A stretch of 64,000 bases of DNA, from positions 7,978 through 71,977 of the forward strand of contig CAXAWH010000007.1 of NCBI GenBank assembly GCA_963972485.1, in the 5' to 3' direction. How positions within the stretch are numbered: position 1 is the first letter of the stretch; each line of letters begins with the position of its first letter. Position numbers and translations under genes: made by a program. Source of the DNA: an uncultured Planctomycetaceae bacterium (GTDB lineage: Bacteria; Planctomycetota; Planctomycetia; Planctomycetales; Planctomycetaceae). Below, piece by piece: positions 8,441 through 59,107 of the stretch. The notes beneath the pieces are model-generated. The model was not told the origin of the DNA. It saw only the letters and a list, made by a program, of their open reading frames with translations, and ran no database searches.

Positions 8441-9079
8441 TCATAATTTTCTTAGCAGCACGACATCATTCCCGGCGACAACAAGTTCGGCCTTCCACGC
8501 ATTTGCCATCCATTGAAATGTCTCGATCGAGTAAAAACAGACGTGGGTAGGGTCCTGTTTGTAGTGCCAATTGCGAAACGAGTCCAAATCGCGAACGCGT
8601 TTTGTCATGATGCCAAGCCAGCCCTGGGGTTTCAGTAACGACCATAAAAGATTCAACTCGCGTTGAGGCTGATGGAAATGCTCGACAACTTCACTGGCTG
8701 TAATGAAATCGTATGACTGATTGAGGACTGATTGGTCGGGAGCATAAAAGGGATCGTAAATCTCCATTTCATGGCTGGCTTCTGTAAACATGAGGGAGAG
8801 TGTTGGGCCAGGACCGCTGCCGAAATCCAACCCACTGCTAGCTGGCTTTAATCGTTCGTTCAGTGGCGCAAACAGTCGACTCAAAAATTTGCGATACCCA
8901 AGATCTTCGGGATGATTTTCATGCAGATCGTAATGACGTTTTTCCGTTTCCGGTGTGGGCAGGTTCTCCCGGTCAACAAAAACCAGAGAGCAGGTGCGAC
9001 ATCGAAAGTATTCTCTCAATCGATCTTGATGAAAATGCTCTGAGAGCGTGTTGCAGAGTGGGCAAGATTGCGTCTTCAC
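8441..9079 (-). CDS. Class I SAM-dependent methyltransferase with N-terminal Zn-ribbon
   Basis: CPLC...CRTC zinc-ribbon pair. SAM-binding motif I GLDFGSGPG. Confidence 0.7.
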   Translation of the reverse strand: MKTQSCPLCNTLSEHFHQDRLREYFRCRTCSLVFVDRENLPTPETEKRHYDLHENHPEDLGYRKFLSRLFAPLNERLKPASSGLDFGSGPGPTLSLMFTEASHEMEIYDPFYAPDQSVLNQSYDFITASEVVEHFHQPQRELNLLWSLLKPQGWLGIMTKRVRDLDSFRNWHYKQDPTHVCFYSIETFQWMANAWKAELVVAGNDVVLLRKL

Positions 9080-9107: not shown

Positions 9108-10550
9108 TTACAGTGCAGGCATCTTTTCATGCCAACTGCATTCCTGCTCATACATGCGAGCGGCACGCAGCAGGGTTTCTTCACCAAGGACAGGGCCGAG
9201 CAATTGAGTGCCGAGAGGCAAACCGTCTTCTGTAAAACCACAGGGAATGGACATGGCAGGAATACCAGCCAGATTTGCTCCAATGGTGAAGATATCGGCC
9301 ATATACATCTGCAGAGGATCGTCGACTAATTCTCCCCGTTTGAAAGCTGGCCCGGGCGTGACTGGTCCTATCAGCAGGTCGACTTTCTCGAAGGCGTTGA
9401 GATAATCCTTTTGAATCAAGCGGCGCACTTTCAAAGCTTTGAGATAGTAGGCATCGTAATAGCCGCTGGAAAGTGCATAGCAACCGAGCATGATGCGACG
9501 TTTGACTTCTTCGCCGAACCCTTCGGTACGCGTCTTTTCATACATCTCCTGCAGACTGCCGTAATCCTGAGCGCGATGTCCATATTGAACGCCATCGTAA
9601 CGGGAAAGATTACTGGAAGCCTCCGAAGGAGCGATGATGTAATAGGTTGCAACGCAATACTTCGAGTGTGGCAATTCAATTGGCACGATCTCGGCACCAA
9701 GTTTTCGATAAGTGTCGACCGATTGGGTGACCGATTCTTTTACGGAATCTTCCACTCCTTCACCCAACCATTCTTCGATAAAGCCGAGTCGAAGATTTTC
9801 CAGGGGGCGATCGAGCGTTTCGAGATAATTGGGGACAGGTTCGTTGAGTGAGGTCGAGTCAAGTTCATCGTGCCCGGCGATTGTCTGCAGCACGGCTGCT
9901 GCTCCGTAAACATCTTGCGAGAAGGGGCCGATTTGATCGAGCGAACTGGCAAAGGCAACCAGGCCGTAGCGGGAGACGCGGCCATAAGTCGGCTTCATTC
10001 CCACAACTCCGCAAAAGGCAGCGGGTTGACGGATCGAGCCTCCGGTATCACTTCCCAATGCGACAGGTGCTAAACCCGCAGCGACAGCAGCGGCTGAACC
10101 TCCCGAAGATCCACCGGGAACATAATCAAGATTCCAGGGATTATTCGTCTTACCCAGAGCCGAGTTTTCGGTGGACGATCCCATCGCGAATTCATCGAGA
10201 TTCGTCTTCCCAAGAATGACCGCACCGGCTTCGTTCAATTTTCTGATGACCGTTGCATCGTAAGGCGATCGAAAATTCTCCAGCATCCGCGAAGCACAGG
10301 TGGTTCCCGAGCCGATGTTGCAGATATTATCTTTAATGGCAATCGGCATGCCCGACATCGGGGAATCGGTCGCAGATAACTCCCCTGCTCTGTTTTTTAC
10401 CGCAGTGGAATCTGACTGTAAATACGCCCCGACTTTGGGATTAATTGATTCGATACGATTCAGGTAAGCCTCAGTCACTTCCTGAGGGGAAGTGGACTGA
10501 TTCTTAATATTATTGACGAGAATGCGCGGATTACTGATCGAAGCGGACAC
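9108..10550 (-). CDS. gatA: Glutamyl-tRNA(Gln)/aspartyl-tRNA(Asn) amidotransferase subunit A
   Basis: 480 aa. Amidase signature GGSSGGSAAAVAAG. Full-length GatA-like architecture (IAIKDNI...GSDTGGSIRQPA). Confidence 0.88.
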   Translation of the reverse strand: MSASISNPRILVNNIKNQSTSPQEVTEAYLNRIESINPKVGAYLQSDSTAVKNRAGELSATDSPMSGMPIAIKDNICNIGSGTTCASRMLENFRSPYDATVIRKLNEAGAVILGKTNLDEFAMGSSTENSALGKTNNPWNLDYVPGGSSGGSAAAVAAGLAPVALGSDTGGSIRQPAAFCGVVGMKPTYGRVSRYGLVAFASSLDQIGPFSQDVYGAAAVLQTIAGHDELDSTSLNEPVPNYLETLDRPLENLRLGFIEEWLGEGVEDSVKESVTQSVDTYRKLGAEIVPIELPHSKYCVATYYIIAPSEASSNLSRYDGVQYGHRAQDYGSLQEMYEKTRTEGFGEEVKRRIMLGCYALSSGYYDAYYLKALKVRRLIQKDYLNAFEKVDLLIGPVTPGPAFKRGELVDDPLQMYMADIFTIGANLAGIPAMSIPCGFTEDGLPLGTQLLGPVLGEETLLRAARMYEQECSWHEKMPAL

Positions 10551-18735: not shown

Positions 18736-19527
18736 TTACACTCCCTGGCTTTTAATAATTGGCGAGGGACTATCTTTATTGTTTCTAAGCGGGACGAGCT
18801 GATTGATTGTCGCGGTCGCTTCTGCAAGTGTCATAATTCGAGCGTAACGATCACGTAATGTCGCCAACGAAGCTTCCTGCAGTTCTGGAGTGACGGTTGC
18901 ACAACAGTCATCAACCAGGGTGACAAGATATCCCAGATCGCAGGCATCCCGGACAGTCGTTTCTACACATTCATTCGTATAAACACCAACGATGAACAGC
19001 GATTCAATTCCCATGTTCTTGAGCACATAGTGCAGATTCGTTGAGGAAAAAACGCCGCTGGCCGTTTTATTGATCACGATTTCATCACGAAATTCATCCG
19101 GGGCAACTGCTTCAATGAAATCGGCATCGCGCGATCCCGGAGGGGCAAGCAGATTCAGTCGTTTATGTCCTTTACTGCGGTCACGTCCATTTCGAGTCAG
19201 CGATTGGATGCGTGTGTGAATCACTTCCAGATTATGCGCTCGAAACGACTCCTGGAGTTTGTGCACATTCGGCAGAACCATTGATGAAAGTCGTTCAAAG
19301 TAATAAGCGTATTCTTCAGAGGGGATACCAGCCTTTGCTGCATCTCGGAAAACACCGTGATCTGGAGCCGCATCGAGATATTGCAAGTCGATGCACAAGA
19401 GAGCCGTATGTCTGTTAACGAGAAAATCACTATGAGCCGGGTTATCGATGAACGATTCGTGATAGACGTCTCTGAGGGGATCGATATGCTCGGGGAGATT
19501 GTTTTCGAGAGGATTTCCGTCAGTCAT
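18736..19527 (-). CDS. Isochorismatase-family cysteine hydrolase
   Basis: Motifs ALLCIDLQ and IVGVYTNECVETTVRDA (catalytic Cys). Start taken at MTDGNPL (19527); the upstream 37 codons of the ORF look non-coding. Confidence 0.8.
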   Translation of the reverse strand: MTDGNPLENNLPEHIDPLRDVYHESFIDNPAHSDFLVNRHTALLCIDLQYLDAAPDHGVFRDAAKAGIPSEEYAYYFERLSSMVLPNVHKLQESFRAHNLEVIHTRIQSLTRNGRDRSKGHKRLNLLAPPGSRDADFIEAVAPDEFRDEIVINKTASGVFSSTNLHYVLKNMGIESLFIVGVYTNECVETTVRDACDLGYLVTLVDDCCATVTPELQEASLATLRDRYARIMTLAEATATINQLVPLRNNKDSPSPIIKSQGV

Positions 19528-19662
19528 AGTACTATTTTCATTCCGGCGGAATTGCCGAGAGTTTGAGCACAGCTCTATAGCATATTCAAAAATAAACGGC
19601 AGCGTAAGGCAGAAGCAAACCCGATGTTTTACGGTCATTTGATGCTCATGCGACTGCAGAAA

Positions 19663-19681
19663 CCATTTGAAAATGGTCTAA
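19663..19681. repeat. 19-nt motif CCATTTGAAAATGGTCTAA (dyad CCATTT-N2-AAATGG), copy 1 of 2
   Basis: Identical 19-mer recurs at 63662-63680. It overlaps the stop codon of the M20 amidase gene and lies about 140 nt upstream of the isochorismatase-like start. Confidence 0.6.
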
Positions 19682-20943
19682 TTTTGTGCAAGATGCAGTA
19701 GTGTTTGCAACATCACATTGGCTCCAGCTTCAATATCTGACCAAGCAGTCCATTCGGCTGGAGAGTGACTTTTTCCATTTTTGCTGGGGACGAATATCAT
19801 ACCGACTGGCACCATTCGCCCCATAATTTGAGCATCGTGAGCGGCTCCGCTGGGCATTTGATGGTATTCCAGGTCTAATTCCTCCGCTTGTGTTCTCAGC
19901 TGCTCGACAATGTCTTCACTGCAGGCAACCGGTTGAAGATAACTTTTCTGTTCGAAATCAAATTTCAGATTTCGACGTCTTGCAATCGCTGAGAGTGCTT
20001 TTTGAAATGCGGTCGATAAATCATCAAGAAACTCTTCAGAGGTATCTCTAACATCGAGCGAAAACTCAACAATTCCTGGAACGGTATTCGCCGCCCCAGG
20101 TAGAATCTGGGCTTTTCCAATTGTCGCACGACTGCGTTCGCTACCATTTTCTTCAAGGATTCGTGGCACTTCATGGGCAAAATCGGCCAGTCCCATGAAG
20201 GCATCGTTTCGCATGTCCATCGGCGTTGTGCCTGCATGATTGGCCTCGCCTCTGAGCCAGACCGACCAGGTAAACAGTCCAGTAATCTCATCGACTATCC
20301 CAACGGATTTGTGCATGCGATCCAGCACTGGCCCCTGTTCAATATGCAATTCGAGATAACTGCGGATCGAATCAGGATCGCGGGCGGCATCAAGAGCTGC
20401 CAGAGGATCATAGCCTTGTCGGCGCATTTCTTCCTGTAACAGAACCCCATCCAGATCGGACATCGTCGCCAGCGAATCGGGGGTGATGTATCCACAAACC
20501 GATTGGGAGCCGAACATTCCGCCAAAGCGACCTTCTTCATCGCTGAAGGCAATCAGTTCGAGTGTTCGTTCTGTCTCAATACCAGCCTCGACAAGACGAC
20601 GCAGGCATTCCAGTCCAACGACGACACCTAATGTTCCATCCAGAGCCCCTGCACAAGGAACGGTATCAATATGAGAGCCAACAAGCACACGAGGCTTCTC
20701 CGTTTTTCCGATAAAGATCCCCGAGATATTTGCGGCTCCATCCACATTGGATTTTAAGCCTGCCTGCTCAATACGATCGATCAACCAGCGTTTGCCCCGC
20801 ATATCGGCATCGGTGAAGGCCATCCGATAAATTCCACGGTCTTCTTCATCCTTTCCGATTTCTGAGAGAGCGAGTATGTCTTCCTTAATCCGTTGAAGAT
20901 CAATTCGTAAATCGGTTGGATTAGTCGCTGTCGATTCCGGCAT
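19678..20943 (-). CDS. M20-family Zn-dependent amidase (allantoate amidohydrolase / N-carbamoyl-L-amino-acid hydrolase type)
   Basis: 421 aa. VGSHIDTVPCAGALDGTLGVV and the dimerisation-domain layout are typical of the hydantoinase/carbamoylase amidase family. Confidence 0.8.
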   Translation of the reverse strand: MPESTATNPTDLRIDLQRIKEDILALSEIGKDEEDRGIYRMAFTDADMRGKRWLIDRIEQAGLKSNVDGAANISGIFIGKTEKPRVLVGSHIDTVPCAGALDGTLGVVVGLECLRRLVEAGIETERTLELIAFSDEEGRFGGMFGSQSVCGYITPDSLATMSDLDGVLLQEEMRRQGYDPLAALDAARDPDSIRSYLELHIEQGPVLDRMHKSVGIVDEITGLFTWSVWLRGEANHAGTTPMDMRNDAFMGLADFAHEVPRILEENGSERSRATIGKAQILPGAANTVPGIVEFSLDVRDTSEEFLDDLSTAFQKALSAIARRRNLKFDFEQKSYLQPVACSEDIVEQLRTQAEELDLEYHQMPSGAAHDAQIMGRMVPVGMIFVPSKNGKSHSPAEWTAWSDIEAGANVMLQTLLHLAQN

Positions 20944-20979
20944 CGCTATGTACCTCTATATGAGTTGATTTTACTGTCT

Positions 20980-22899
20980 CTAATCGACTACTGGCAAAGG
21001 CAATCCCTCGACATATTGCCCATGGAGCATGTGCAACTGCAATGTGTGATTGAGAACAATATCGTTGCGGCGGGCCACTGTGCTGTCGGTTTCGTTCCAG
21101 GATTGATCGATGAATTGAATCAGTCGATCATAGTCGAAGAAGCCAACTTCGCGAACGCGTTCTGGTGTCAGCCAGTGGTTAATCATCTCCTGAACGGCAT
21201 TGCGTTTGACGGGATCGGTATGGGCGGGGGGAGCCATGAAGGCGAATTTTTTTCGCTCGTACAATTCTTTTGGTAGCACATTAATCATCGCTTCTCGCAA
21301 TACCCATTTTTCGATGCCATCTCGAATTCTAACATCTGGCGGAATCGTCACCGCATACTCGGCGACGTGATGATCCAGAAACGCCGGACGCGCTTCCATG
21401 CTGTTGGCCATATCCATCCGGTCGCCACCCCAGGTCAAAATCTGACCTTCGAGCATCGTTTTACTCCACGTGTATTGCGAAATATCGAGTCGATGTCGTC
21501 CACGGACTTGAGCCGGGTCGATGGCTGCTGCGACTTCTCCGACGGGATCGTATTCTTCAAACAAGTCCTGCATCGCGTTGGAGAGGATCGGCTGGAATCG
21601 TTTCAGAGTCAGCATCCAGGGTTGCATCCAGGAGGGAGTGAATCCGCACAAATCCTGCCAGGCAGGATGCTGGAGATCTTCTTCTGCGAGAATCGCGCCA
21701 GCAAAAATGCCCCCTTCATCGTCGCGGCCGAGCCAGTCGCGTTTGAAGAATGGATAACCGCCGAATAACTCGTCGGAGCCTTCTCCGGTAATGACGGCTT
21801 TATAATTGCAGGCACGGACGCGACGGCTCATATGCCATTTCGCGACTGCTAATGTGTTATAGAATGTTCGTTCGGCATGCCAGGTCGCTCGTTCAAAGGC
21901 CGGGCCGTAGAGTTCTTTTTCTGTCAGCCGCAGAAGTTCCTGCTCGGCTCCGGTTCGATCAGCCATCAGCTTGGCGATATTGGATTCATCATATTCATCG
22001 CTATCGAAAGCAATCGTAAAGGCTTTGACGGCGGATTGCTGTAATGTTGTTGCGAGGCCAAGAATCGAACAACTGTCGATGCCGCCTGAAAGATAACAGC
22101 CTACAGGAACATCCGCTTCGAGACGTGTTGCAACAGCATCAATGAGTCTGTCCTGTACACCCTGAACGTATTCTTGTGGATCGGCATTTTCTTCGTGAGA
22201 CTCAGGAAAAACGAAATCCCACCAGCGTTTCGTGCGGGTTTCCAGTCGTCCATCCTGCAGATTGACAATCAGCATATGCCCTGGCTTTAAGGCTTCAACA
22301 CCTTTAAAAGCCGTCGAACCGGGGACCATCACCTGCATCATTTGATGCAGCGCCGCTTTAGGGCAGAGTTCAGGATTAATATCGGGATGTTTTAGAATCG
22401 ATTTGACTTCCGAGCCCCAGACGATGCCATTGTCGTTCATGGCATAATAGAGTGGCTTGATGCCGAAACGATCACGAACGAGAATCAGTTGTTTCTTCTT
22501 GTTGTCATACAGAACGACCGCGAATTCTCCACGAAGATGCTCGACGAAGGACAATCCATCTCTCAAGTATAAAGGAAGAGCGATCGCACTATCACTTTTT
22601 CCACTTGTTGAGAAATTGTTGCACCCGAGTTGGGTCCGAATCCTTTTGTAATTGTATAACTCACCATTGACGGTGAGGGCATAATCGCCATCGGTCGTTT
22701 CGATTGGCTGATGCCCGTGATCCAGTCCGATAATTGAGAGTCGCGTATGCCCTAATGCAAGACCTTGATCCACATAAAGCCGACTCCCCCGATCATCCGG
22801 ACCACGGTGATCGAGAACATCGAGCATGCGATCAAGAGTAAACCGCAGTTCGCGTTCATTGGTTCGAGAAGGATTCCAAAATCCGGAGATACCACACAT
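20980..22899 (-). CDS. asnB: Asparagine synthase-type glutamine-hydrolysing amidotransferase
   Basis: Ntn start MCGISGFW. PP-loop YLSGGIDSCS. 639 aa. The symbol reflects the family only; the substrate may not be aspartate. Confidence 0.8.
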   Translation of the reverse strand: MCGISGFWNPSRTNERELRFTLDRMLDVLDHRGPDDRGSRLYVDQGLALGHTRLSIIGLDHGHQPIETTDGDYALTVNGELYNYKRIRTQLGCNNFSTSGKSDSAIALPLYLRDGLSFVEHLRGEFAVVLYDNKKKQLILVRDRFGIKPLYYAMNDNGIVWGSEVKSILKHPDINPELCPKAALHQMMQVMVPGSTAFKGVEALKPGHMLIVNLQDGRLETRTKRWWDFVFPESHEENADPQEYVQGVQDRLIDAVATRLEADVPVGCYLSGGIDSCSILGLATTLQQSAVKAFTIAFDSDEYDESNIAKLMADRTGAEQELLRLTEKELYGPAFERATWHAERTFYNTLAVAKWHMSRRVRACNYKAVITGEGSDELFGGYPFFKRDWLGRDDEGGIFAGAILAEEDLQHPAWQDLCGFTPSWMQPWMLTLKRFQPILSNAMQDLFEEYDPVGEVAAAIDPAQVRGRHRLDISQYTWSKTMLEGQILTWGGDRMDMANSMEARPAFLDHHVAEYAVTIPPDVRIRDGIEKWVLREAMINVLPKELYERKKFAFMAPPAHTDPVKRNAVQEMINHWLTPERVREVGFFDYDRLIQFIDQSWNETDSTVARRNDIVLNHTLQLHMLHGQYVEGLPLPVVD

Positions 22900-22985
22900 A
22901 ACTCACCTTGTTTATTTTCTTTAGCTGCAATCAATTCAATACGAAGGCTGGATTTAAGAAACGTCGCCCATCTGTCGCGATTATT

Positions 22986-24068
22986 TTAAACGCCGCTCAA
23001 ACGATCCAGACGATTCAAAACGGCAATCAACAACGCCTGCCTGACAAACACAGCCCCGGCTGCCTGCGCGAAGTAAAGATTGTGACTCGTCTCGTCGAAA
23101 CATTCGGGCAGTTCATCATTTCTGGCCAGCGGGTGCATAATGACAGCATCTTTTTTAAGAGGACTTTTTTCCTGCAGCTTGGAACGACTGTCCAAATTGC
23201 GGTAACTGTCACCCAGAAACGCAATCGAATTGACATAGACAATGTCGAGGTCCGGTAATACTGATTGGACATTGTTCGTGATGTCAATTGGAATGGGAGA
23301 TTCTTCTATCGGTTCGGTCAAGTCGAGTCCGACGGGATCGGCCATTTCAGAGATGAGCGTAATTTTCTTGACGGCTCCTGTGAACATCAGCGAGAGTCTC
23401 AGAAAGCTTTTTACGGCTCTCATTGAACCGGGCGTACCGATGATTCCGAGATGCACTTTACGCTCTTCCGGACAATCATCCTGACACAGTTCCGGTCGCC
23501 ATTTCAATAACGCATACCAGTCGATCAGGGCTTGTGTCGGATGATGACCTGACCCATTTCCTGCATTAATGAGTGGACGTTGTAAATTTCTTTGAATCTC
23601 TTCCAGGCTATTCGTATCGGGATGCCGCATAATGACGATATCGCCATAGGTATTGAACATCTCGCCGATATCAGCCAACGATTCGCCCTTGGCAACTCCC
23701 GTTACCTGACCATCGGGCACAGAGAGGACTTTACCATCCAGTCGCTGCACCGCACTTTCAAAGGAAAGCCGGGTGCGAGTGCTGGCTTCAAAAAATGCAG
23801 TGATGGCAATTTTGCCATCGAGTGGTTTATCCATCTCAACATTTCTCGACTCCAGTAAAGCCGCAAGTTGAGCAATCGCGACAATGGTTCGACGATCAAA
23901 CTGACGCGGGTTCAAAATGGATTGCCCTGCGATTGAGTCGAGTGCTTCTCGATCGATTTTACCATTTGTAAAATCCAGCAACTGCTGCGGACTCAATTTG
24001 CAGCCTTTGGAATTGGATGCGAAATTTGTCAGCGCACGCGAAATTTGTTCTTCGGACAACCGTTTCAT
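22986..24068 (-). CDS. ATCase/OTCase-fold transcarbamylase with a non-canonical second-substrate site
   Basis: Carbamoyl-phosphate motifs FFEASTRTRLSFE and HPTQAL, plus ATCase-like HPLAR. The canonical aspartate-binding segment (E. coli MTRVQKER) reads VNSIAFLGD. About 48 extra N-terminal residues. Confidence 0.75.
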   Translation of the reverse strand: MKRLSEEQISRALTNFASNSKGCKLSPQQLLDFTNGKIDREALDSIAGQSILNPRQFDRRTIVAIAQLAALLESRNVEMDKPLDGKIAITAFFEASTRTRLSFESAVQRLDGKVLSVPDGQVTGVAKGESLADIGEMFNTYGDIVIMRHPDTNSLEEIQRNLQRPLINAGNGSGHHPTQALIDWYALLKWRPELCQDDCPEERKVHLGIIGTPGSMRAVKSFLRLSLMFTGAVKKITLISEMADPVGLDLTEPIEESPIPIDITNNVQSVLPDLDIVYVNSIAFLGDSYRNLDSRSKLQEKSPLKKDAVIMHPLARNDELPECFDETSHNLYFAQAAGAVFVRQALLIAVLNRLDRLSGV

Positions 24069-24194
24069 GGTTCTACCAGATATTATTTTGTTTGGAATCG
24101 ATTATAAAAAATGTCAACAGTCCTATGACTCCCAGTGTGCACAAGAACAGACCACCAAAAACGATCAGTTGCAAAAACCAGAGTGGAAATAAAA

Positions 24195-25667
24195 TCATCT
24201 GGAAGCCTCTGCTAAGATAGGTTTAGGAATGCTTCTGTCCGGCGGTGGGGCGGAGAGTGTTTTGAAATCAAAATTATCGGGAGCAATCTTCATCGCGATT
24301 CCGAAAACAATTCCGGAAACTGTCGCTCCAATGAGCGAAGAAACAAACCAGCCAATCGTAAAATAGGCGATTAAACCACACGTTGTCCCCAGAATCATTG
24401 CCAGAGATGCGGCGATGGGACTGGCTTTGCGAGAGTACAATCCTCCTACAATCGGCCAGATACAGCTCCCTACCATTGGTCCTGCAAAAAACAAAACGGT
24501 TGCCAGTGTACCCACATTCGGTAAGGCAACTCCCCACGCCAGTAGACCCAATCCGACGATACTCATCGCCGCCCAGCGACGTTTGGATGTGTCTGAAATT
24601 TCTCCTGGTATGATGGGTTCAATAATATCGTTGACAAGCAAATCAGCTGTCGCAGCCAGTAAGCTATCGATACTGGACGCTAATGAACAGAAAATGACGA
24701 TGAATACCAGCAACGCGCCCACAGAGCCCAGCAAAGTGGCCGCAACAAGTGGGCCTACGGTATCGGGTTGACTGATTCCAATTCCCAATGCGGGAGCAGC
24801 TAACCCTAAAAAGCCTGCCACAATCGGAACCGGTAGCCACAGCAAACCACCTAAGGCATACGCTTTGGGGCCAACGCCTTTTCGCATGGAAAACGCCCTG
24901 CTCCACCAGACGTTGCTATGAAAGATTTCACCAAACCCAAACAACATATTATTGAACAGAGACATCAATGCAGCCGGAAAGAAGATCGAGAGCAGCATCG
25001 GCCGCTGAACCTCCAGTTTCGTATACACATCGCCAATATCAACCTGCATCAGAACTGCGATGGAAACAACGACAAGACCAATCAGGATAATCAGACTTTG
25101 GATAAAGTCTGTTCCAATGACCGCATACATCCCACCGAATAAGGTGTAGAGCACACAAACGGCCAGTACAACGGTCATGCCAATCGGATACGGAATTCCT
25201 GAGAGGACATTCAATAATTTGCCGCCTGCCATCGACATGGAAATCAACCAGGTAATTGCATAAAACAGCGAGATCAATAAAAATGGTACGGTTGCAATTT
25301 GACCATATCGTTTCCGCACAAACTCGACGGCAGTGTATCCCTCGGGCATCAACTGGCGAATTCGGCCGCTCATCGGTGCGAATGCAAACAGTCCAAAACT
25401 TGCTGTCGAGTAGGCAAGCGCTCCCCAGATTCCCAGTTGCAGAGCAAACTGCGGAGCAAGCATGGTTGTGTTGGAAGTGATCCAGGTTGCAACAGCCGTT
25501 GCAGTCCCTAATGCCAGTCCGACATTGCGGCCAGCCACTGCGAAACCATCGTAGGATTTCGCACGTTTCCCCCACCAGATTCCCAGGGAGACCCACAGAA
25601 CACCAAACAGCCCGAGCATCACATACCCAGCCTGCGGACTTAAAATGGTTCCGACAGCCAGGATCAT
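24195..25667 (-). CDS. Sodium:solute symporter (SSS) family transporter
   Basis: 490 aa with about 13 TM helices. SSS-like N-terminal GRNVGLALGTATAVATWITS segment. Confidence 0.8.
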   Translation of the reverse strand: MILAVGTILSPQAGYVMLGLFGVLWVSLGIWWGKRAKSYDGFAVAGRNVGLALGTATAVATWITSNTTMLAPQFALQLGIWGALAYSTASFGLFAFAPMSGRIRQLMPEGYTAVEFVRKRYGQIATVPFLLISLFYAITWLISMSMAGGKLLNVLSGIPYPIGMTVVLAVCVLYTLFGGMYAVIGTDFIQSLIILIGLVVVSIAVLMQVDIGDVYTKLEVQRPMLLSIFFPAALMSLFNNMLFGFGEIFHSNVWWSRAFSMRKGVGPKAYALGGLLWLPVPIVAGFLGLAAPALGIGISQPDTVGPLVAATLLGSVGALLVFIVIFCSLASSIDSLLAATADLLVNDIIEPIIPGEISDTSKRRWAAMSIVGLGLLAWGVALPNVGTLATVLFFAGPMVGSCIWPIVGGLYSRKASPIAASLAMILGTTCGLIAYFTIGWFVSSLIGATVSGIVFGIAMKIAPDNFDFKTLSAPPPDRSIPKPILAEASR

Positions 25668-26239
25668 TCCGCTATTTCCTTCTGAACTAAAACTGATTCA
25701 GGTTGAGTTTCCCGGGTAGCCATCGCTCCTTGAATTATGACAAAGATGATTGCCAGAAAGACAATCAAACCAATCGAAAACAGACTCAGAGCCTGCCACA
25801 ATGGCCAGTGATCTACCGTGACTAATGCAGGCTCATTCGATTGAGCGATCAGTTCTCCCTGAGCGTTAAGGGCTTTGACCTGATACGAATACTCGCCGTT
25901 AGCTAACCCCGAAATCATGGCCTGAGGAAAGGCACCGCGAAATACGACAAGGCCATCATTCTCGAAAACCTGATACTCTGCTGCCCCTTCGACTGCGCTC
26001 CAGCGAAGATCGATATAACCTTCACGAACGTCGGCAAACTTTTTCTGAACAAATTCGATAGGAGGCGAGACCGCGAGTGCTGCTTCAGGGGATGATGTTG
26101 AAGGGGGTTCTGAGTTTTCAGAGGACGGATTTTGCCCGAATCCAGACGAAGCCTGAAAGATAATCAGCAGGAGTAAAACAGATACAAAAGAGACTGTTTC
26201 ACAACTGGAATCCGCGTTGCCGGACCGGCAAAATAACAC
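25664..26239 (-). CDS. Single-pass membrane protein with Fn3-like ectodomain, translationally coupled to the symporter
   Basis: Signal/TM at the N-terminus. Fn3-like core (IDLRWSAVEGAAEYQVF...YSYQVKALN). C-terminal TM. 4-nt overlap with the SSS gene start. Confidence 0.6.
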   Translation of the reverse strand: MLFCRSGNADSSCETVSFVSVLLLLIIFQASSGFGQNPSSENSEPPSTSSPEAALAVSPPIEFVQKKFADVREGYIDLRWSAVEGAAEYQVFENDGLVVFRGAFPQAMISGLANGEYSYQVKALNAQGELIAQSNEPALVTVDHWPLWQALSLFSIGLIVFLAIIFVIIQGAMATRETQPESVLVQKEIAE

Positions 26240-33703: not shown

Positions 33704-34909
33704 TCAGCATTTCATGGCCTGTGAAAACAGCCGCATGGATGGGAAGTAATCTGCAATAATTTTTAGAACCGCAAGAATCGGTACGGCAAGAAATACGCCG
33801 CCGATACCCCACATCCAGCCCCAGATGGCTATGAACAGGAAAACTATCAAGGGGTTCAGGCTCATCGAACGTCCCAGCAGAAATGGAGTGACAAACTGTC
33901 CTTCCAGCGAAGTTAATCCAAAATAGACTGCCGGAAATACGCAAGCGTAACCGATGCTGAAGGGTTGCAAAATTGCTATGAAAAAGACGATTACTGTCCC
34001 TGTCCAGGCACCCAGAAATGGAATGAAATTAAACAGAGCGGCCATAACTCCAACCAGGAAAGCATTCGGCAGACCGAGCAGATACATTGCCAGGCCCGTA
34101 ATGATTCCCAATGACACATTGATTACTGTGACAGTAAACAGATACAGCGACATTCCATGTTGCAGGTCTTCAATTAAATCCTTCGCTTTTGCTTTGGAGG
34201 ATGTAATTTCGAAGCCAGCGATCAAATTGGAGATCGTTGTATGGCCATAGACCAGGAGAAAAAATAAAAGCCCCAATGTGATAACCGTACCTGCCACCAA
34301 ACCTCCGGAATTGCTGACAATCTCCACGCCAGGAAAAAGTTTTGGTTGTTGGATTGCAACGGGCACAGGTTCATCGGCTTCATCCGGTTTGGCAATTTCC
34401 TTAATCTTTGCAGAAGCCTGCTCCATGTCCTCAATTTGTTTTTCAACTCCACTGAGCTTCATTTCAATTTGATTGAGATATTCCGGAGCATTGGCGATCC
34501 AATCTTTGATTGGTCCAGTTAAATTCATCATGGCTGCAGCGAATGCCCCAATGATGACAAACAGACAGATCGTAGCTCCCACGACGGGGGGAAGGTGCCA
34601 TTGATGAAAAATAGTCATAACTGGTCTGAGAACCAGATAGAGTATTAAAGCCAATACCACAGGCATCGCGACAGATTTTGCGAACGTTAGAACACTCAGA
34701 ACAGAAATTACAGCCAATATCGTTGTTGCAGCCTGAGGTAAGACGACTTTAACTCTGGGTATTTTAACAGACTCCTTGCTATCAGACCGCTGCAGCATTT
34801 TTTCATGTTCATTGTGAGGTGGGTCCTGTGCGGTACGCTGTCCCACGGACTGTTGCCAGTTGGTAAACGCATTGCTTCTGGCCATCGTGGGCATATTAGT
34901 CACTTTCAT
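33704..34909 (-). CDS. AI-2E (PerM/UPF0118) family transporter, paralog 1
   Basis: Multi-TM protein with a central soluble insertion. C-terminal IWGWMWGIGGVFLAVPI motif is typical of AI-2E transporters. Confidence 0.75.
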   Translation of the reverse strand: MKVTNMPTMARSNAFTNWQQSVGQRTAQDPPHNEHEKMLQRSDSKESVKIPRVKVVLPQAATTILAVISVLSVLTFAKSVAMPVVLALILYLVLRPVMTIFHQWHLPPVVGATICLFVIIGAFAAAMMNLTGPIKDWIANAPEYLNQIEMKLSGVEKQIEDMEQASAKIKEIAKPDEADEPVPVAIQQPKLFPGVEIVSNSGGLVAGTVITLGLLFFLLVYGHTTISNLIAGFEITSSKAKAKDLIEDLQHGMSLYLFTVTVINVSLGIITGLAMYLLGLPNAFLVGVMAALFNFIPFLGAWTGTVIVFFIAILQPFSIGYACVFPAVYFGLTSLEGQFVTPFLLGRSMSLNPLIVFLFIAIWGWMWGIGGVFLAVPILAVLKIIADYFPSMRLFSQAMKC

Positions 34910-37422: not shown

Positions 37423-38493
37423 TTAGACCACTTGTTTTGGAGTTGTTTCTGCAGGAGGCTTCCAATGACCGGCTAAAATTGCAGCAATTGACTTTGTCGC
37501 ATCAATCTTCCCCAATACGATCTTTATGCCAGCTGTAATCGGTGTCGCCAGAAACATGCCGACAATGCCCCACATCATTCCCCAGAACATCAAAGCCAGC
37601 AGCACAACCACAGGATGCAAGTCGGTTGATTCTCCCATCATTTTCGGCTCAATAATATTTCCACTGGCGAATTGGATCCCCGAGAGCACCAGAATCGCAG
37701 CGACCATCCAGCCAATCCCGGCTTCGGGTTGTAGAATGATCAGGGGAATCGGCAGCACTGTCGCAACGAGTGGGCCAATATTGGGAATGTAATTGAGCAG
37801 GAACGCGAGTAATCCAAATGTCATTGCCATCGGTAGTCCGAACAAAGCAATCGCCAAACCAAAGATTGCTCCCGTGATGACTGAGATCACCGTTTTCAGG
37901 CGAAGATAATTCCGAATTTGCAGATCGATTTCGTTCCAGGTTCCCGTCACTCCTAACGGAGCCGTAGCTCCAAGTAAGAGAAAGAAGACATAAATTAAAA
38001 CCACAATACTGGTCATCATCAGATTCAGAAGTGCTCCTGAAAGTTCTGATATTCCGTGTGTCATAAGAGACTCTAAGGACAGATCTATCTTCTTATCTGT
38101 TGGCGTTATCGATGTTTCGTCATCTGGGAGATCCCCTTTAACGAAACGCTCAGGTATATAATCCTGAATTGTGTTCACAATTTCCTGAATTCGCATGCGG
38201 TAAGCAGGAGCCATTTCGCGAAGTTCAATCGTCGAGGTCCATAACGTCCAGCCGAGTATCACCACAATGACCAACCCCAGCAGGAATGTGATCCCTGCAG
38301 CGACGAGCCGATCGACACCGAGCCGTCGCTGTAAAGTCTCCAGAACAGGAGCAATTCCACTGACGACAAACACTGCAATTACAAAGGGCAACAACACGGG
38401 GCGAAGCCAGTAAATGGCGTAGCCAATTGCTGCTGTGGTTAAAATCATCAGACAGATCGTCTGAACTCTCGAACGAGCCTCTTCATTATGCAT
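37423..38493 (-). CDS. AI-2E (PerM/UPF0118) family transporter, paralog 2
   Basis: 356 aa, multi-TM. Motif FWGMMWGIVGMFLATPITA. Confidence 0.8.
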   Translation of the reverse strand: MHNEEARSRVQTICLMILTTAAIGYAIYWLRPVLLPFVIAVFVVSGIAPVLETLQRRLGVDRLVAAGITFLLGLVIVVILGWTLWTSTIELREMAPAYRMRIQEIVNTIQDYIPERFVKGDLPDDETSITPTDKKIDLSLESLMTHGISELSGALLNLMMTSIVVLIYVFFLLLGATAPLGVTGTWNEIDLQIRNYLRLKTVISVITGAIFGLAIALFGLPMAMTFGLLAFLLNYIPNIGPLVATVLPIPLIILQPEAGIGWMVAAILVLSGIQFASGNIIEPKMMGESTDLHPVVVLLALMFWGMMWGIVGMFLATPITAGIKIVLGKIDATKSIAAILAGHWKPPAETTPKQVV

Positions 38494-54232: not shown

Positions 54233-54474
54233 CTGCTGATTCCTTTATCTGTTCAGAGCACACAATTCCTGCCACATGCATTCATGCTGACCAAAACTAT
54301 AAGATAACAACATATAACGCAAAGTCGATCTTAACAGTCACGTCGATTTTCTCAATTTCGTTTCTTCGCAATCCCCTCTATACTCTTGCAAGACTCGATC
54401 ACAAAATAATGGATGCATGACTGCACGAAACACAAAAGTTGGTCGAGTTTCAGCAAAGATGCGAAAGGCAACTC

Positions 54475-57168: not shown

Positions 57169-57267
57169 TTTCCATAAATTGTATATTCTGAATAATTATT
57201 CGTTTCAGCGCGAACCAATGTGCACCAGTTAGTCTCTTATCCTCCAGTAATTAAGGAGGAAATAGAG

Positions 57268-58845
57268 ATGGCAAATAAGAATTTATTCAACACGTTAATC
57301 GGGAATTCTGGCCCAAAGGCGAACACTCGCAATGAAGCAGGTGGGTTGGCTTATCAGATGTCACCGAAGCAGTCGCTGGCCCAGTATGCAGCGACGGGTT
57401 GTTTCAATGGGACATTCTACTCCAGTGGAGCCGATCAGGTCGATGCCGTGCTCGAACTGTGCGAACAGATCGAACCAGAATTTATCGCTCGAACTGCATT
57501 GTACGCCCGCAATGAAGGTCATATGAAGGATATGCCTGCATTGTTATGTGCAGTGTTATCGGTTAAGGCACCGGGGTTGTTGATCAAGATCTTCAATCAG
57601 GTCATCGATTCACCGAAGATGCTGCGTAACTTTGTGCAGATCATGCGTTCGGGAATTGTCGGACGTAGAAGCCTGGGGACGTTACCAAAGCAGTTGATTC
57701 GCAACTGGCTGGAAGCTCGAGCGGCTGAGCAGTTGTTTGTCGGATCTATAGGAAACGATCCCTCACTCGCCGATGTGATCAAGATGGTTCACCCAAAGCC
57801 AGCAACGCCAGAGCGTTCGGCTTTGTATGCCTACCTAATTGGTCGTGAGAGCAATTGGTCAGATCTCCCCGAGTTGATTGGGCAGTATGAAAAGTTCAAG
57901 CGAAACACAAATCCAGGTAAGGTTGCCGTGCCTGATGTTCCCTTCCAGATGTTGACGGCTTTGCCATTAACGAAGAAGGACTGGGGACAGATCGCCCGAA
58001 ACGCTTCCTGGCAAATGACTCGTATGAACTTGAATACGTTTTTGCGTCACGGTGTTTTTGAGAGTGCGGAATTGACAGGAATTGTGGCAAATCGATTGCG
58101 AAATCCGCGAAAGATTGCTGCTGCCCGTGTGTTTCCGTATCAGTTAATGGCGGCTTACATGAACTCTGCGAACGAAGTGCCGCAGATCATTCTTAACGCA
58201 TTGCAGGATGCGATGGAAATCGCCATTAAGAATGTGCCTCGTGTGACTGGTAAAGTGTATGTCTTTCCGGACGTTTCGGGATCGATGCATTCTCCAGTGA
58301 CGGGACATCGTGCCGGATCGACTTCCAAGGTTCGCTGTCTGGACGTTGCAGCTCTTGTGGCGGCAGCGATTCTGCGAAAGAACCCGGAAGCCGAAGTGAT
58401 TCCATTCGAATCGAAGGCGATCACCTGTCGGTTGAATCCACGTGATAGCGTGATGACGAATGCCAGAACTCTGGCTTCGTTGCCAGCTGGTGGAACCAAC
58501 TGCAGTGCTCCTCTGGAGTACTTGAATCGTCAGAAGGCGAAGGGAGATTTGTTGATTTACGTTTCGGATAACGAATCGTGGGTCGACTCGCCTCACTACG
58601 GATGGTGCGGAGGCGGAGCAACCGCGACGATGCAGGAATGGGCTACGTTCAAGCGACGAAATCGTCAGGCCAAAATGGTCTGCATCGATATTCAGCCGTA
58701 TGCACATACGCAGGCGGTCGAACGAGCTGATATTGTTAACGTCGGTGGTTTCAGTGACCAGGTCTTCAAGTTGATTGCCAATGTCTCAAAAGGACAGGCC
58801 AGCGAGAATCACTGGGTGAATGAAATCGAACGGATGCGTTTGTAA
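57268..58845 (+). CDS. rsr: Ro60-related TROVE/vWA RNA-binding protein (Rsr)
   Basis: ATG at 57268 follows an AAGGAGGA RBS. The TROVE N-terminus matches (NEAGGLAY...L..YAATGCFNGTFY...ARTALYARNEGHMKD). C-terminal vWA with MIDAS motif FPDVSGSM. Confidence 0.85.
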   Translation: MANKNLFNTLIGNSGPKANTRNEAGGLAYQMSPKQSLAQYAATGCFNGTFYSSGADQVDAVLELCEQIEPEFIARTALYARNEGHMKDMPALLCAVLSVKAPGLLIKIFNQVIDSPKMLRNFVQIMRSGIVGRRSLGTLPKQLIRNWLEARAAEQLFVGSIGNDPSLADVIKMVHPKPATPERSALYAYLIGRESNWSDLPELIGQYEKFKRNTNPGKVAVPDVPFQMLTALPLTKKDWGQIARNASWQMTRMNLNTFLRHGVFESAELTGIVANRLRNPRKIAAARVFPYQLMAAYMNSANEVPQIILNALQDAMEIAIKNVPRVTGKVYVFPDVSGSMHSPVTGHRAGSTSKVRCLDVAALVAAAILRKNPEAEVIPFESKAITCRLNPRDSVMTNARTLASLPAGGTNCSAPLEYLNRQKAKGDLLIYVSDNESWVDSPHYGWCGGGATATMQEWATFKRRNRQAKMVCIDIQPYAHTQAVERADIVNVGGFSDQVFKLIANVSKGQASENHWVNEIERMRL

Positions 58846-58884: not shown

Positions 58885-59107
58885 ATCACTGCCCTTTCAG
58901 GGCTTAGATTTGGGCCTCAAAGCTCTGTAACGCACTCCTTTGTCGTGCTTTACAACAACATCATCAACAATAATTGTTAGAATAGATGATGCACTACTCG
59001 TATTTTGTCAAAACCTTGAAGCCAGGAGTCGAATGCTTTTGGGACTACATTTTAGATAGTGTGAAATGTCTCAAAAAAACCTTGTCGACTTCTTTTCTAT
59101 GTTTCAA

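What the first reader, a model, noticed from the sequence alone, without database searches (positions are those of the whole stretch)
18736..26239. Six-gene operon pairing a transcarbamylase with an AsnB-type amidotransferase, a decarbamoylase-type M20 amidase, an isochorismatase-type amidase and a dedicated symporter
All six genes are on the minus strand, separated by a 4-nt overlap or by gaps of 36-150 nt. In order they encode an Fn3 single-pass protein, an SSS symporter, an ATCase-fold enzyme, an AsnB homologue, an allantoate-amidohydrolase/N-carbamoyl-amino-acid-hydrolase-type M20 enzyme, and an isochorismatase-family Cys hydrolase. The last family includes N-carbamoylsarcosine amidase, RutB ureidoacrylate amidohydrolase and nicotinamidase.

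Every enzyme handles carbamoyl, ureido or amide nitrogen, and a transporter leads the operon. This suggests import and stepwise processing, or import-coupled synthesis, of a ureido/amide compound. I cannot match this combination to any textbook pathway. It is not pyrimidine synthesis (no pyrC or pyrI), not allantoin or arginine deiminase (no carbamate kinase), and not NAGGN synthesis.
Basis: partly seen in the sequence, partly recalled or inferred. Interest (0 to 1): 0.65.

Follow-up and report, generated by a model that had tools for sequence, protein, structure and literature searches.

The report
Operon for a carbamoylated amino-acid amide
A seven-gene operon found in several bacterial phyla, mostly marine ones, pairs a new kind of aspartate-transcarbamylase-like enzyme with an asparagine-synthetase-like amidotransferase, and most likely makes, re-imports and recycles a nitrogen-rich small solute to which no genes have yet been assigned.

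Summary
The six minus-strand genes are real and belong to the stated families. A seventh gene, a 41-aa membrane micro-ORF, fills the "gap" between the symporter and the transcarbamylase.

The ATCase-fold protein is not a normal PyrB. It keeps all carbamoyl-phosphate and alpha-carboxylate contacts. It has lost the RxQxER motif that binds aspartate's beta-carboxylate (N-S-I-A instead of T-R-x-Q) and reads HPLAR instead of HPLPR. It scores below every NCBIfam transcarbamylase cut-off and forms its own clade.

In 14 of 15 independent loci an orthologous AsnB-like amidotransferase lies immediately downstream. These loci come from Planctomycetota, Verrucomicrobiota, Alpha- and Gammaproteobacteria and Actinomycetota. 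The symporter, the M20 decarbamoylase, the isochorismatase-type amidase and a MarR regulator recur in shuffled order. One locus reads carA-carB-ATC-AsnB. Two loci sit beside sugar-osmolyte synthase genes.

Best reading (about 0.45): synthesis of an N-carbamoyl amino-acid amide, plus its re-uptake and hydrolytic recycling. [quoted passage not shown] The substrate, the product and any salt response are inferred, not shown. I found no prior description.

The parts
25664..26239 (-). Small type-I membrane protein: signal or anchor helix, a beta-rich (Fn3/Ig-like?) periplasmic domain, and a C-terminal TM helix. It is the first gene of the operon and overlaps the symporter start by 4 nt.
   Evidence: Orthologues lie at the head of the cluster in L001, L002, L004, L006, L011 and L015. 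A positional equivalent in L092 was not tested for homology. Only weak Fn3/Ig Pfam hits. The AF2 model is poor, pLDDT 54.
24195..25667 (-). Divergent sodium:solute symporter (SSS/SSF family), 490 aa.
   Evidence: Pfam SSF E 7e-18. TIGR00813 scores 110.8 bits, below its cut-off of 184, and no specific equivalog is reached. An orthologue (505-817 bits) is adjacent in 10 of 15 loci.
24073..24198 (-). It has an ATGA overlap with the symporter stop and ends 4 nt before the transcarbamylase ATG.
   Evidence: Called as a 39-41-aa gene in L001, L003, L006 and L092. Alignment A2 has invariant V13, G15, L19, L27, D34 and a C-terminal W. phmmer hits in L001, L002 and L004.
22986..24068 (-). ATCase-fold carbamoyltransferase of a new subfamily. 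STRTR, KGES, MRHP, HPTQ and the R167 equivalent are kept. The RxQxER motif is replaced (YVNSIAFLG) and HPLPR becomes HPLAR.
   Evidence: AF2 model pLDDT 76, pTM 0.83; best folds are ATCases at target-normalised TM about 0.85.
20980..22899 (-). AsnB-type glutamine-dependent amidotransferase, 639 aa. It has the N-terminal Cys2 (MCGISG) and the SGGIDS PP-loop.
   Evidence: The orthologue (597-1287 bits) lies directly downstream of the transcarbamylase in 14 of 15 loci. The closest solved structure is the hydroxyamidotransferase 7YLZ, ahead of AsnB 1CT9.
19678..20943 (-). M20 amidohydrolase of the hydantoinase/carbamoylase family, a likely N-carbamoyl-L-amino-acid decarbamoylase.
   Evidence: TIGR01879 361 > 204. 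NF006771 538 > 399. ErtE (N-carbamyl-L-glutamate amidohydrolase) 371 < 520. The closest solved structure is N-carbamoyl-L-amino-acid hydrolase 3N5F (273 bits), ahead of allantoate amidohydrolase 1Z2L (200 bits). Present in 9 of 15 loci.
18736..19527 (-). Isochorismatase-family cysteine hydrolase (amidase) with the Asp-Lys-Cys triad D84/K191/C224. The start is revised to Met38.
   Evidence: It is 55-74% identical between planctomycete and gammaproteobacterial clusters. Present in 6 of 15 loci.
20968..20997 (-). Best sigma-70-like match in the region (TTGCCA-18-TAAAAT, 10 of 12), 25 nt upstream of the M20 start. It could be an internal promoter for the hydrolase pair. This is a weak hint only.
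   Evidence: The number of promoter-like sites in the region is not above the shuffle expectation.

Best explanation
The operon encodes the synthesis, re-uptake and recycling of a small, nitrogen-rich, charge-masked solute: an N-carbamoyl amino-acid amide.

Proposed steps (all inferred):

1. The ATCase-like enzyme transfers the carbamoyl group of carbamoyl phosphate to the alpha-amino group of a non-acidic L-amino acid, most likely glutamine.
2. The AsnB-like enzyme adenylates a carboxylate of that N-carbamoyl amino acid. It then amidates it with ammonia from glutamine hydrolysis at its Cys2 domain. [quoted passage not shown]
3. The SSS symporter, with the Fn3-like anchor protein and the 41-aa TM peptide, takes the solute up or recaptures it.
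4. The isochorismatase-type amidase and the M20 decarbamoylase reverse steps 2 and 1 when the solute is no longer needed, returning the amino acid, CO2 and NH3.

Shown here: gene content, motifs, and conservation of the cluster. Inferred: direction, order of steps, substrate, and osmolyte role.
For: 1. The enzyme is competent but is not an ATCase. The carbamoyl-phosphate residues (STRTR, KGES, R105, HPTQ) and the alpha-carboxylate residues (R167, K84) are invariant in all 16 family members. R229 and Q231 of the RxQxER motif, which anchor aspartate's beta-carboxylate (PMC4581275), are replaced by S/A/T/V and A/T/V/I.

2. The transcarbamylase-AsnB pair is kept in 14 of 15 loci across five phyla or classes. 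The AsnB-like enzyme has an intact glutaminase Cys and PP-loop.

3. The direction is biosynthetic. L008 reads carA-carB-ATC-AsnB, and no locus contains a carbamate kinase.

4. There is a precedent for an AsnB-type enzyme making the C-terminal amide of an osmolyte: AsnO in NAGGN synthesis. TIGR03104 is among the best NCBIfam hits at 277 bits.

5. The cluster associates with other osmolyte genes.
- In the Chromatiales locus L015 a bona fide sucrose-phosphate synthase (TIGR02472, 667 > 576), a sucrose-phosphate phosphatase, a fructokinase and an amylosucrase-like gene follow directly on the same strand.
- In L008 a HAD plus GT20 fusion of the glucosylglycerol-phosphate/trehalose-phosphate synthase type is the divergent neighbour.

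6. An orthologous MarR regulator (45-46% identical across phyla) lies next to the cluster in L001, L002/L003, L010, L015 and L092, with a weaker match in L013. This resembles the MarR-type ectoine regulator EctR (my own knowledge).

7. The hydrolases match the proposed reverse steps. The M20 enzyme is closest to N-carbamoyl-L-amino-acid hydrolase and scores 371 bits on the N-carbamyl-L-glutamate amidohydrolase model. In L013 a glutaminase A gene lies 1.3 kb downstream.

8. The hydrolase pair is accessory. It is absent in L004, L005, L008, L010 and L012, and convergent in L002, L006 and L011.

9. Named hosts of the full cluster are mostly marine taxa (habitats from my own knowledge): many Pirellulales and Planctomycetales, Novosphingobium profundi, Ca. 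Thiodiazotropha, and Sedimenticolaceae.

10. CGA is a documented osmolyte. No biosynthetic genes turned up in the searched literature.
Against: - No N-carbamoyl solute is among the compatible solutes listed for Planctomycetota: sucrose, trehalose, glutamate, glucosylglycerate (GG), mannosylglucosylglycerate (MGG), NAGGN and ectoines (PMC13342039; PMC3694870). Whether the species examined carry the cluster is unknown.
- I could not show the cluster in Ectothiorhodospira.
- In the window, L001 and L092, the synthetic and hydrolytic genes appear co-transcribed. That would be a futile cycle unless the enzymes are regulated after translation.
- In three loci (Actinosynnema, Actinophytocola and an unnamed metagenome contig), the transcarbamylase (with AsnB in two of them) sits in a pyrimidine-antimetabolite-like cluster. 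There its product is probably a building block.
- The AsnB-like protein passes the generic asparagine synthase model TIGR01536 (406 > 267). An Asp-to-Asn role followed by carbamoylation of Asn is therefore not excluded.
- The window's own neighbours (MgtC, GDPD, BNR sialidase-like) have no osmotic theme.
Confidence: 0.45

Rival explanations
1. Protecting-group biosynthesis. The amino group is carbamoylated transiently, as it is acetylated in arginine synthesis. The AsnB-like enzyme amidates a carboxylate, and the M20 enzyme then removes the carbamoyl group. The end product would be a free amino-acid amide or another amine, with the isochorismatase-type amidase acting in salvage or proofreading.
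For: All four enzymes are co-directional and closely spaced in the window, L001 and L092. M20 deacylases such as ArgE play this role in arginine synthesis (established knowledge). This reading avoids a futile cycle.
Against: The M20 gene is missing from 6 of 15 loci and convergent in three more. It is therefore not an obligatory pathway step. The isochorismatase-type amidase has no clear role in this scheme.
Confidence: 0.15
2. The product of the pair is not an osmolyte. It is a nitrogen store, a signal, or a precursor for a secondary metabolite. The transporter would import the precursor amino acid rather than the product.
For: In L005, L012 and L090 the transcarbamylase (with AsnB in the first two) is embedded in a conserved cluster. 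That cluster also holds ThyA-like, dCMP-deaminase-like, nucleoside 2-deoxyribosyltransferase-like, ThiD-like, TENA, JmjC and APH genes. The product would carry up to four nitrogens. A MarR regulator fits ligand-responsive control just as well.
Against: The actinobacterial branch has a different specificity motif (NSLT/NALV) and lacks the transporter and the hydrolases. The full cluster is adjacent to sucrose and GT20 osmolyte genes in two loci and to carAB in one. These links argue for bulk synthesis.
Confidence: 0.2
3. This is the first reader's 'import and stepwise processing': a catabolic route for an imported ureido/amide compound. The transcarbamylase would work phosphorolytically to yield carbamoyl phosphate.
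For: A transporter leads the operon. Two hydrolases for ureido and amide groups are present. Catabolic transcarbamylases exist, for example PTCase and the oxamate enzyme (PMC4581275).
Against: No carbamate kinase appears in any of the 15 loci. An ATP- and glutamine-consuming AsnB-type amidotransferase is the most tightly linked partner. One locus is carA-carB-ATC-AsnB. Several loci have the ATC-AsnB pair with no transporter or hydrolase at all.
Confidence: 0.1
4. These are ordinary housekeeping pyrB and asnB genes that merely lie next to unrelated hydrolases and a transporter.
For: The best NCBIfam and PDB matches of the transcarbamylase are ATCases. The AsnB-like protein passes TIGR01536. I could not locate a second pyrB in the genome.
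Against: The RxQxER motif is absent in every member. All ATCase equivalog cut-offs are missed (161 bits against 237 and 263). The family forms its own clade, separate from about 90 canonical ATCases. Rubripirellula lacrimiformis carries two copies. Synteny is conserved across phyla with shuffled gene order. NCBI's own pipeline names the protein only as a 'family protein'.
Confidence: 0.03

Closest known systems
NAGGN (N-acetylglutaminylglutamine amide) synthesis, AsnO plus Ngg
   Same: An AsnB-type, glutamine-dependent amidotransferase turns a free alpha-carboxylate of an N-capped glutamine derivative into an amide. The result is an uncharged, nitrogen-rich osmolyte made by a two-enzyme core. 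NAGGN is already reported in Planctomycetota (PMC13342039).
   Different: NAGGN instead uses an acetyl-glutaminyl cap added by the GNAT/ATP-grasp enzyme Ngg, and no Ngg gene is present. The AsnB-like protein scores 277 bits against the 570 cut-off of the AsnO model. This cluster also carries a transporter and two hydrolases.
Aspartate carbamoyltransferase catalytic chain (PyrB)
   Same: Same unknotted two-domain fold (target-normalised TM about 0.85). Same carbamoyl-phosphate site (SxRT, HPxQ, R105, K84). Same alpha-carboxylate Arg (R167).
   Different: The RxQxER 240s-loop motif is replaced by N-[SATV]-[IL]-x. HxLP reads HPLA. There is an extra 'KWRPEL...' insertion after HPTQ and a roughly 45-residue N-terminal extension. 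No pyrI or pyrC is nearby. It falls below all equivalog thresholds.
[quoted passage not shown]
   Same: It is the compound that a 'carbamoylate the alpha-amine, amidate the alpha-carboxylate' pair would make from glutamine. It is known as an osmolyte from a phototrophic gammaproteobacterium (PMC1224877, PMC7824335), and the cluster is common in marine gammaproteobacteria such as Chromatiales and Sedimenticolaceae.
   Different: It is a compound, not a gene system, and no link between the two has been shown. Ectothiorhodospira was not among the hits I could list.
Ectoine system (ectABC with MarR-type EctR, SSS/TRAP/ABC importers, doe degradation genes) and the sps-spp-fruK-ams sucrose cluster
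   Same: Genes for synthesis, uptake, regulation and breakdown of an osmolyte are gathered together. SSS-type osmolyte importers exist in Planctomycetota (EctI, PMC13342039). The sucrose cluster combines synthetic and degradative genes, as seen next to this cluster in L015.
   Different: The enzyme families and the chemistry are entirely different.
L-carbamoylase / N-carbamoylsarcosine amidase type ureide hydrolases
   Same: The M20 enzyme is closest to N-carbamoyl-L-amino-acid hydrolase 3N5F. The isochorismatase-like enzyme has the Asp-Lys-Cys triad of CSHase, RutB and BiuH.
   Different: No hydantoinase, dihydropyrimidinase or creatinine-pathway genes are present. Both enzymes fall below the specific equivalog cut-offs for ErtE, AllC, BiuH and RutB.

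Membership tests
Aspartate carbamoyltransferase (PyrB) | [quoted passage not shown] | tested here: not met
   The window has Y-V-N-S-I-A-F-L-G at that position. All 16 family members have N-[SATV]-[IL]-x.
Aspartate carbamoyltransferase (PyrB) | Score at or above NCBIfam equivalog cut-offs (TIGR00670, NF002032, NF006046, NF008853). | tested here: not met
   161.4 against 237; 160.7 against 263; 143 against 512; 130 against 560.
Transcarbamylase superfamily | SxRT, HPxQ and HxLP motifs, and the two-domain alpha/beta fold. | tested here: met
   STRTR and HPTQ are present. HxLP is present as the variant HPLA. Pfam OTCace_N 121 bits and OTCace 32 bits, both above cut-off. The AF2 model matches ATCases at target-normalised TM about 0.85.
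Ornithine carbamoyltransferase | DxxxSMG ornithine loop and HCLP motif. | tested here: not met
   Neither motif is present. The best OTC model scores 80 bits against a cut-off of 306.
Asparagine synthetase B-type amidotransferases | N-terminal Cys nucleophile, SGGxDS PP-loop, and GATase_7 plus Asn_synthase domains. | tested here: met
   MCGISG, SGGIDS; Pfam E 3e-91; TIGR01536 406 > 267.
E. coli-type AsnB (true asparagine synthetase) | NF006949 equivalog score. | tested here: not met
   270 bits against a cut-off of 499, matched in three separate stretches. Aspartate specificity itself cannot be tested here.
NAGGN amidotransferase AsnO | TIGR03104 score and an adjacent ngg gene. | tested here: not met
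   277 against 570. No GNAT/ATP-grasp gene appears in any locus.
Hydantoinase/carbamoylase-family M20 amidase | TIGR01879 score, and M20 plus dimerisation domains. | tested here: met
   361 > 204; Pfam M20 and M20_dimer. The closest structure is L-carbamoylase 3N5F.
Allantoate deiminase AllC / ErtE | Equivalog cut-offs TIGR03176 and NF058540. | tested here: not met
   272 against 598; 371 against 520. The broader subfamily model NF006771 is passed (538 > 399).
Isochorismatase-like cysteine hydrolases | Asp-Lys-Cys catalytic triad and the Pfam domain. | tested here: met
   D84, K191 and C224 are invariant in six orthologues. PF00857 127 bits.
BiuH / RutB / PncA / CSHase | Specific equivalog cut-offs. 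| tested here: not met
   BiuH 66 against 370; RutB 55 against 378; PncA 42 against 174.
Compatible-solute biosynthesis cluster | The product accumulates with external osmolarity, and the genes are osmotically induced. | not testable with these tools
   Only indirect evidence: adjacency to sucrose-phosphate synthase and GT20 genes, mostly marine hosts, a carAB link, and a MarR regulator.

The most novel reading that the evidence does not exclude
[quoted passage not shown] This nitrogen-rich osmolyte would then not be a curiosity of one Dead Sea phototroph. It would be made, released, re-imported and recycled by many marine bacteria, including planctomycetes, verrucomicrobia, sphingomonads, and sulfur-oxidising free-living and symbiotic gammaproteobacteria. 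The key enzyme would be a transcarbamylase with a new amino-acid specificity.
Probability: 0.25. Interest if true: 0.8.

Novelty: new variant of a known kind. Interest (0 to 1): 0.66.

Why it matters
If the reading is right, four things follow.

- It defines a new substrate class for the transcarbamylase family, whose known second substrates are few. The family can be recognised by a crisp sequence signature: N-[SATV]-[IL]-x plus HPLAR.
- It gives a genetic handle on a class of ureido-amide osmolytes whose biosynthesis has had no genes since the compound was described in 1991.
- It points to an unrecognised sink for carbamoyl phosphate and glutamine nitrogen, and to an unrecognised ureido component of marine dissolved organic nitrogen with its own transporter. 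Hosts include lucinid-clam symbionts (Ca. Thiodiazotropha).
- Thousands of database entries now named 'aspartate carbamoyltransferase' would need renaming.

Tried and rejected
- **Ectothiorhodospira test.** I looked for the cluster in the only known CGA producer.
  - The 120 listed relatives of the Chromatiales protein were all at least 70% identical MAG or Thiodiazotropha sequences.
  - The result is inconclusive, not negative. I left the third protein search unused because only the top 120 hits are listed, which made success unlikely.
- **Separate housekeeping pyrB in Rubinisphaera italica.** No tool searches a named genome. The only planctomycete PyrB in hand (L083, 72% GC, canonical TRLQ/HPLPR) is too distant to pull out Rubinisphaera within 120 hits.
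- **Fn3 fold of the first protein.**
  - The single-sequence model was poor (pLDDT 54), so I ran no fold search.
- **Literature.**
  - Searches on transcarbamylase, asparagine synthetase, osmolyte and isochorismatase combinations found nothing relevant.
  - Two transcarbamylase reviews do not mention an AsnB-linked subfamily.
- **Rhodopirellula baltica.** The salt-stress transcriptome and solute papers mention no carbamoyl or asparagine-synthetase genes or solutes.
- **RNA elements and signals.**
  - Rfam gathering-level search of the window found no riboswitch or leader near the operon.
  - Promoter and terminator scans were not above shuffle expectation.
- **Degenerate sister subfamily (P0136 and others).** Its genomic context is unrelated, so I dropped it.

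Full report
**Observation**

The six minus-strand ORFs are at the stated coordinates and belong to the stated families.
- 24195-25667: SSS symporter.
- 22986-24068: OTCace_N/OTCace carbamoyltransferase.
- 20980-22899: GATase_7 plus Asn_synthase amidotransferase.
- 19678-20943: M20 hydantoinase/carbamoylase-family amidase.
- 18736-19638: isochorismatase-family hydrolase.

The first ORF (25664-26239) has no significant Pfam match. Its sequence shows a signal or anchor helix, a beta-rich middle with a W...Y...Y-G...Y-x-V-x-A pattern, and a C-terminal TM helix. Fn3/Ig-like hits are weak (E 0.014-0.2) and the single-sequence AlphaFold model is poor. 'Fn3' is therefore plausible, not shown.

Two corrections apply.
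- The 126-nt gap between the symporter and the transcarbamylase contains a seventh gene. It is a 41-aa single-TM ORF (24073-24198) with an ATGA overlap onto the symporter stop, and it ends 4 nt before the next ATG. It is conserved in other loci.
- The isochorismatase gene most likely starts at 19527.

Spacing along the operon is then: a 4-nt overlap, a 4-nt overlap, then gaps of 4, 86, 36 and 150 nt. No internal terminator signal stands out. The best promoter-like match lies just upstream of the M20 gene. The protein is 99% identical to one from Rubinisphaera italica.

**The transcarbamylase is a new subfamily, not PyrB**

It scores below every NCBIfam transcarbamylase cut-off; the best is ATCase at 161 bits against 237.

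Alignment with E. coli, Pyrococcus and Plasmodium ATCases and with relatives shows what is kept and what is lost.
- Kept: STRTR, K84 (KGES), R105 (MRHP), HPTQ and R167.
- Lost: the 240s-loop RxQxER motif. The review PMC4581275 says this motif occurs in all known ATCases, and that its R229 and Q231 anchor aspartate's beta-carboxylate. Here it reads Y-V-N-S-I-A-F-L-G.
- Changed: HPLPR is HPLAR.

All 16 family members examined share N-[SATV]-[IL]-x plus HPLAR. About 90 other full-length representatives carry TRxQ/HPLPR.

In a neighbour-joining tree of 122 sequences, the family groups with a degenerate sister group that has lost its catalytic motifs. That combined clade is separate from canonical ATCases. 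The AlphaFold model (pLDDT 76, pTM 0.83) has the ATCase fold.

The enzyme should therefore carbamoylate the alpha-amine of a substrate that has an alpha-carboxylate but not aspartate's beta-carboxylate.

**Gene-neighbourhood conservation**

I examined 15 independent loci with visible flanks.

| Locus | Source | Gene order |
|---|---|---|
| window | Rubinisphaera | Fn3TM-SSF-micro-ATC-AsnB-M20-IsoC |
| L001 | Rosistilla | same order as the window, plus a divergent MarR |
| L002/L003 | Phycisphaerales MAG | same core; M20 and IsoC convergent; MarR and a methyltransferase |
| L004 | Aureliella | core only |
| L006/L007 | Unnamed NCBI assembly; ATC-like protein groups with the gammaproteobacterial clade | core plus a convergent M20 |
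| L008/L009 | unknown taxon, 42% GC | carA-carB-ATC-AsnB |
| L010 | Verrucomicrobiales | MarR, SSF-ATC-AsnB |
| L011 | Novosphingobium profundi | Fn3TM-SSF-ATC-AsnB; M20 convergent |
| L013 | Gammaproteobacteria MAG | M20-IsoC-ATC-AsnB, then a methyltransferase and glutaminase A |
| L014 | Gammaproteobacteria MAG | SSF-ATC-AsnB-M20 |
| L015 | Chromatiales MAG | MarR, Fn3TM-M20-IsoC-SSF-ATC-AsnB |
| L092 | Ca. Thiodiazotropha | MarR, then Fn3TM-M20-IsoC-SSF-micro-ATC-AsnB, with four 4-nt overlaps |
| L005, L012, L090 | Actinophytocola (L005), Actinosynnema (L012), an unnamed metagenome contig (L090) | ATC, with AsnB in L005 and L012, inside another cluster |

Counts across the 15 loci:
- An orthologous AsnB-like gene (597-1287 bits, against about 170 for an ordinary AsnB) lies directly downstream of the transcarbamylase in 14.
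- The symporter is present in 10.
- The M20 gene is present in 9.
- The isochorismatase gene is present in 6.
- An orthologous MarR (45-46% identical between phyla) is present in 5, with a weaker match in L013.

The same genes recur in shuffled order across phyla. That is strong evidence for a single function with an ATC-AsnB core and accessory transport, hydrolysis and regulation modules.

**Mechanism**

The AsnB-like protein has the Cys2 glutaminase nucleophile and the SGGIDS PP-loop. It should adenylate a carboxylate and amidate it with glutamine-derived ammonia. Its closest solved relative is a hydroxyamidotransferase that acts on a non-aspartate acid (7YLZ), ahead of AsnB itself.

Three observations show the pair works in the synthetic direction: the carA-carB-ATC-AsnB operon, the ATP cost of AsnB chemistry, and the absence of carbamate kinase from every locus. 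The expected product is an N-carbamoyl amino-acid amide.

The two hydrolases are the formal reverse of these steps.
- The isochorismatase-type enzyme has the Asp-Lys-Cys triad. Its nearest characterised relatives are biuret/triuret hydrolases, RutB and N-carbamoylsarcosine amidase.
- The M20 enzyme is closest to N-carbamoyl-L-amino-acid hydrolase 3N5F. It also scores 371 bits on the N-carbamyl-L-glutamate amidohydrolase model.

Because the hydrolases are often absent or convergently transcribed, I read them as a recycling module. They do not look like obligatory pathway steps.

**Why an osmolyte, and why CGA**

[quoted passage not shown] NAGGN's final step uses an AsnB-type enzyme. CGA is documented in Ectothiorhodospira marismortui (PMC7824335). 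I found no genes assigned to it.

Context supports an osmotic role.
- In L015 the cluster is followed on the same strand by a bona fide sucrose-phosphate synthase, a sucrose-phosphate phosphatase, a fructokinase and an amylosucrase-like gene.
- In L008 the divergent neighbour is a HAD plus GT20 fusion of the glucosylglycerol-phosphate/trehalose-phosphate synthase type.
- L013 has a glutaminase nearby.
- A divergent MarR regulator recalls EctR of ectoine operons (my own knowledge).
- SSS-type osmolyte importers are known in Planctomycetota (PMC13342039).
- Named hosts of the full cluster are mostly marine taxa, by my own knowledge of their habitats.

None of this identifies the amino acid. Gln is the leading guess; Asn or other neutral residues are possible.

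**Evidence against, and rivals**

- No carbamoyl solute has been reported in the planctomycetes studied so far.
- I could not show the cluster in Ectothiorhodospira.
- Co-transcribing synthesis with hydrolysis needs post-translational control.
- In Actinosynnema, Actinophytocola and one metagenome contig, the transcarbamylase sits in a conserved cluster. That cluster has ThyA-like, dCMP-deaminase-like, nucleoside deoxyribosyltransferase-like, ThiD-like, TENA, JmjC and APH genes. It looks like a modified-pyrimidine natural-product pathway. That branch has a different motif (NSLT/NALV) and probably a different substrate.

Rivals and rough weights:
- Transient carbamoyl protection leading to a free amide: 0.15.
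- A non-osmolyte product, such as a nitrogen store, signal or precursor: 0.2.
- Catabolism of an imported ureide: 0.1.
- Coincidental housekeeping genes: 0.03.

**Verdict**

The evidence points to synthesis, uptake and recycling of an N-carbamoyl amino-acid amide, not stepwise catabolism.

It is a new variant built from known enzyme families, and I found no prior description. The housekeeping-pyrB test and the Ectothiorhodospira test remain open. The decisive experiments are simple.

Noticed in passing
window 57220-58845 (+) and 59347-59505 (+); also 59024-59093 (+): A Ro60/TROVE plus vWA protein gene is followed about 500 nt downstream by a YrlA-type Y RNA-like match. The match scores 67.2 bits, E 1.5e-14, just under Rfam's gathering score of 69, so the default scan missed it. 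A weak YrlB-like match (26 bits) lies between them. This looks like a Ro60-Y RNA module in a planctomycete.
   Followed up: partly
L005 10001-21008; L012 9773-20896; L090 1-14710: In Actinophytocola, Actinosynnema pretiosum and a metagenome contig, the ATC-like gene sits in a conserved cluster; the AsnB-like gene accompanies it in the first two. The cluster also has JmjC, TENA/THI-4, two APH kinases, dCMP-deaminase-like, nucleoside 2-deoxyribosyltransferase-like, ThyA-like and ThiD-like genes. It resembles bacimethrin/mildiomycin-type modified-pyrimidine pathways. The transcarbamylase motif there is NSLT/NALV rather than NSIA.
   Followed up: partly
P0136, P0142, P0143, P0146 and about 10 more representatives; L093 594-1670: A sister group of roughly 357-aa ATCase-fold proteins shares the family's 'KWRPEL' insertion. 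One named member comes from a gammaproteobacterial MAG. The group has lost STRTR, KGES, HPTQ and HPLxR, so these are probably pseudo-enzymes. The one context examined (spermine-synthase-like, Fe-S/CCG, hydrolase) is unrelated to AsnB.
   Followed up: partly
L002 6847-7638; L003 632-1423; L013 13027-13860: An orthologous SAM-methyltransferase (44% identical between a Phycisphaerales and a gammaproteobacterial locus) lies next to the cluster in two lineages. It may be an optional tailoring or regulatory partner. None is adjacent in the window.
   Followed up: partly
window 54439-57168 (+): A 909-aa protein with an MGH1-like/GH63 domain (mannosylglycerate- or glucosylglycerate-hydrolase type). 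It may hydrolyse a compatible solute, and lies 28 kb from the operon.
   Followed up: no
P0013 and P0014 (Rubripirellula lacrimiformis, same 8.54-Mb contig): This genome carries two copies of the ATC-like gene, both about 81-82% identical to the window protein.
   Followed up: no
window 8441-9079 (-) and 9108-10550 (-): An amidase-signature amidase (Pfam Amidase, 521 bits) is followed by a Methyltransf_23 protein, 8 kb from the operon. This is another amide-nitrogen enzyme, with no demonstrated link.
   Followed up: no
window 33704-34909 (-) and 37423-38493 (-): Two AI-2E family transporter paralogues lie within 4 kb of each other.
   Followed up: no
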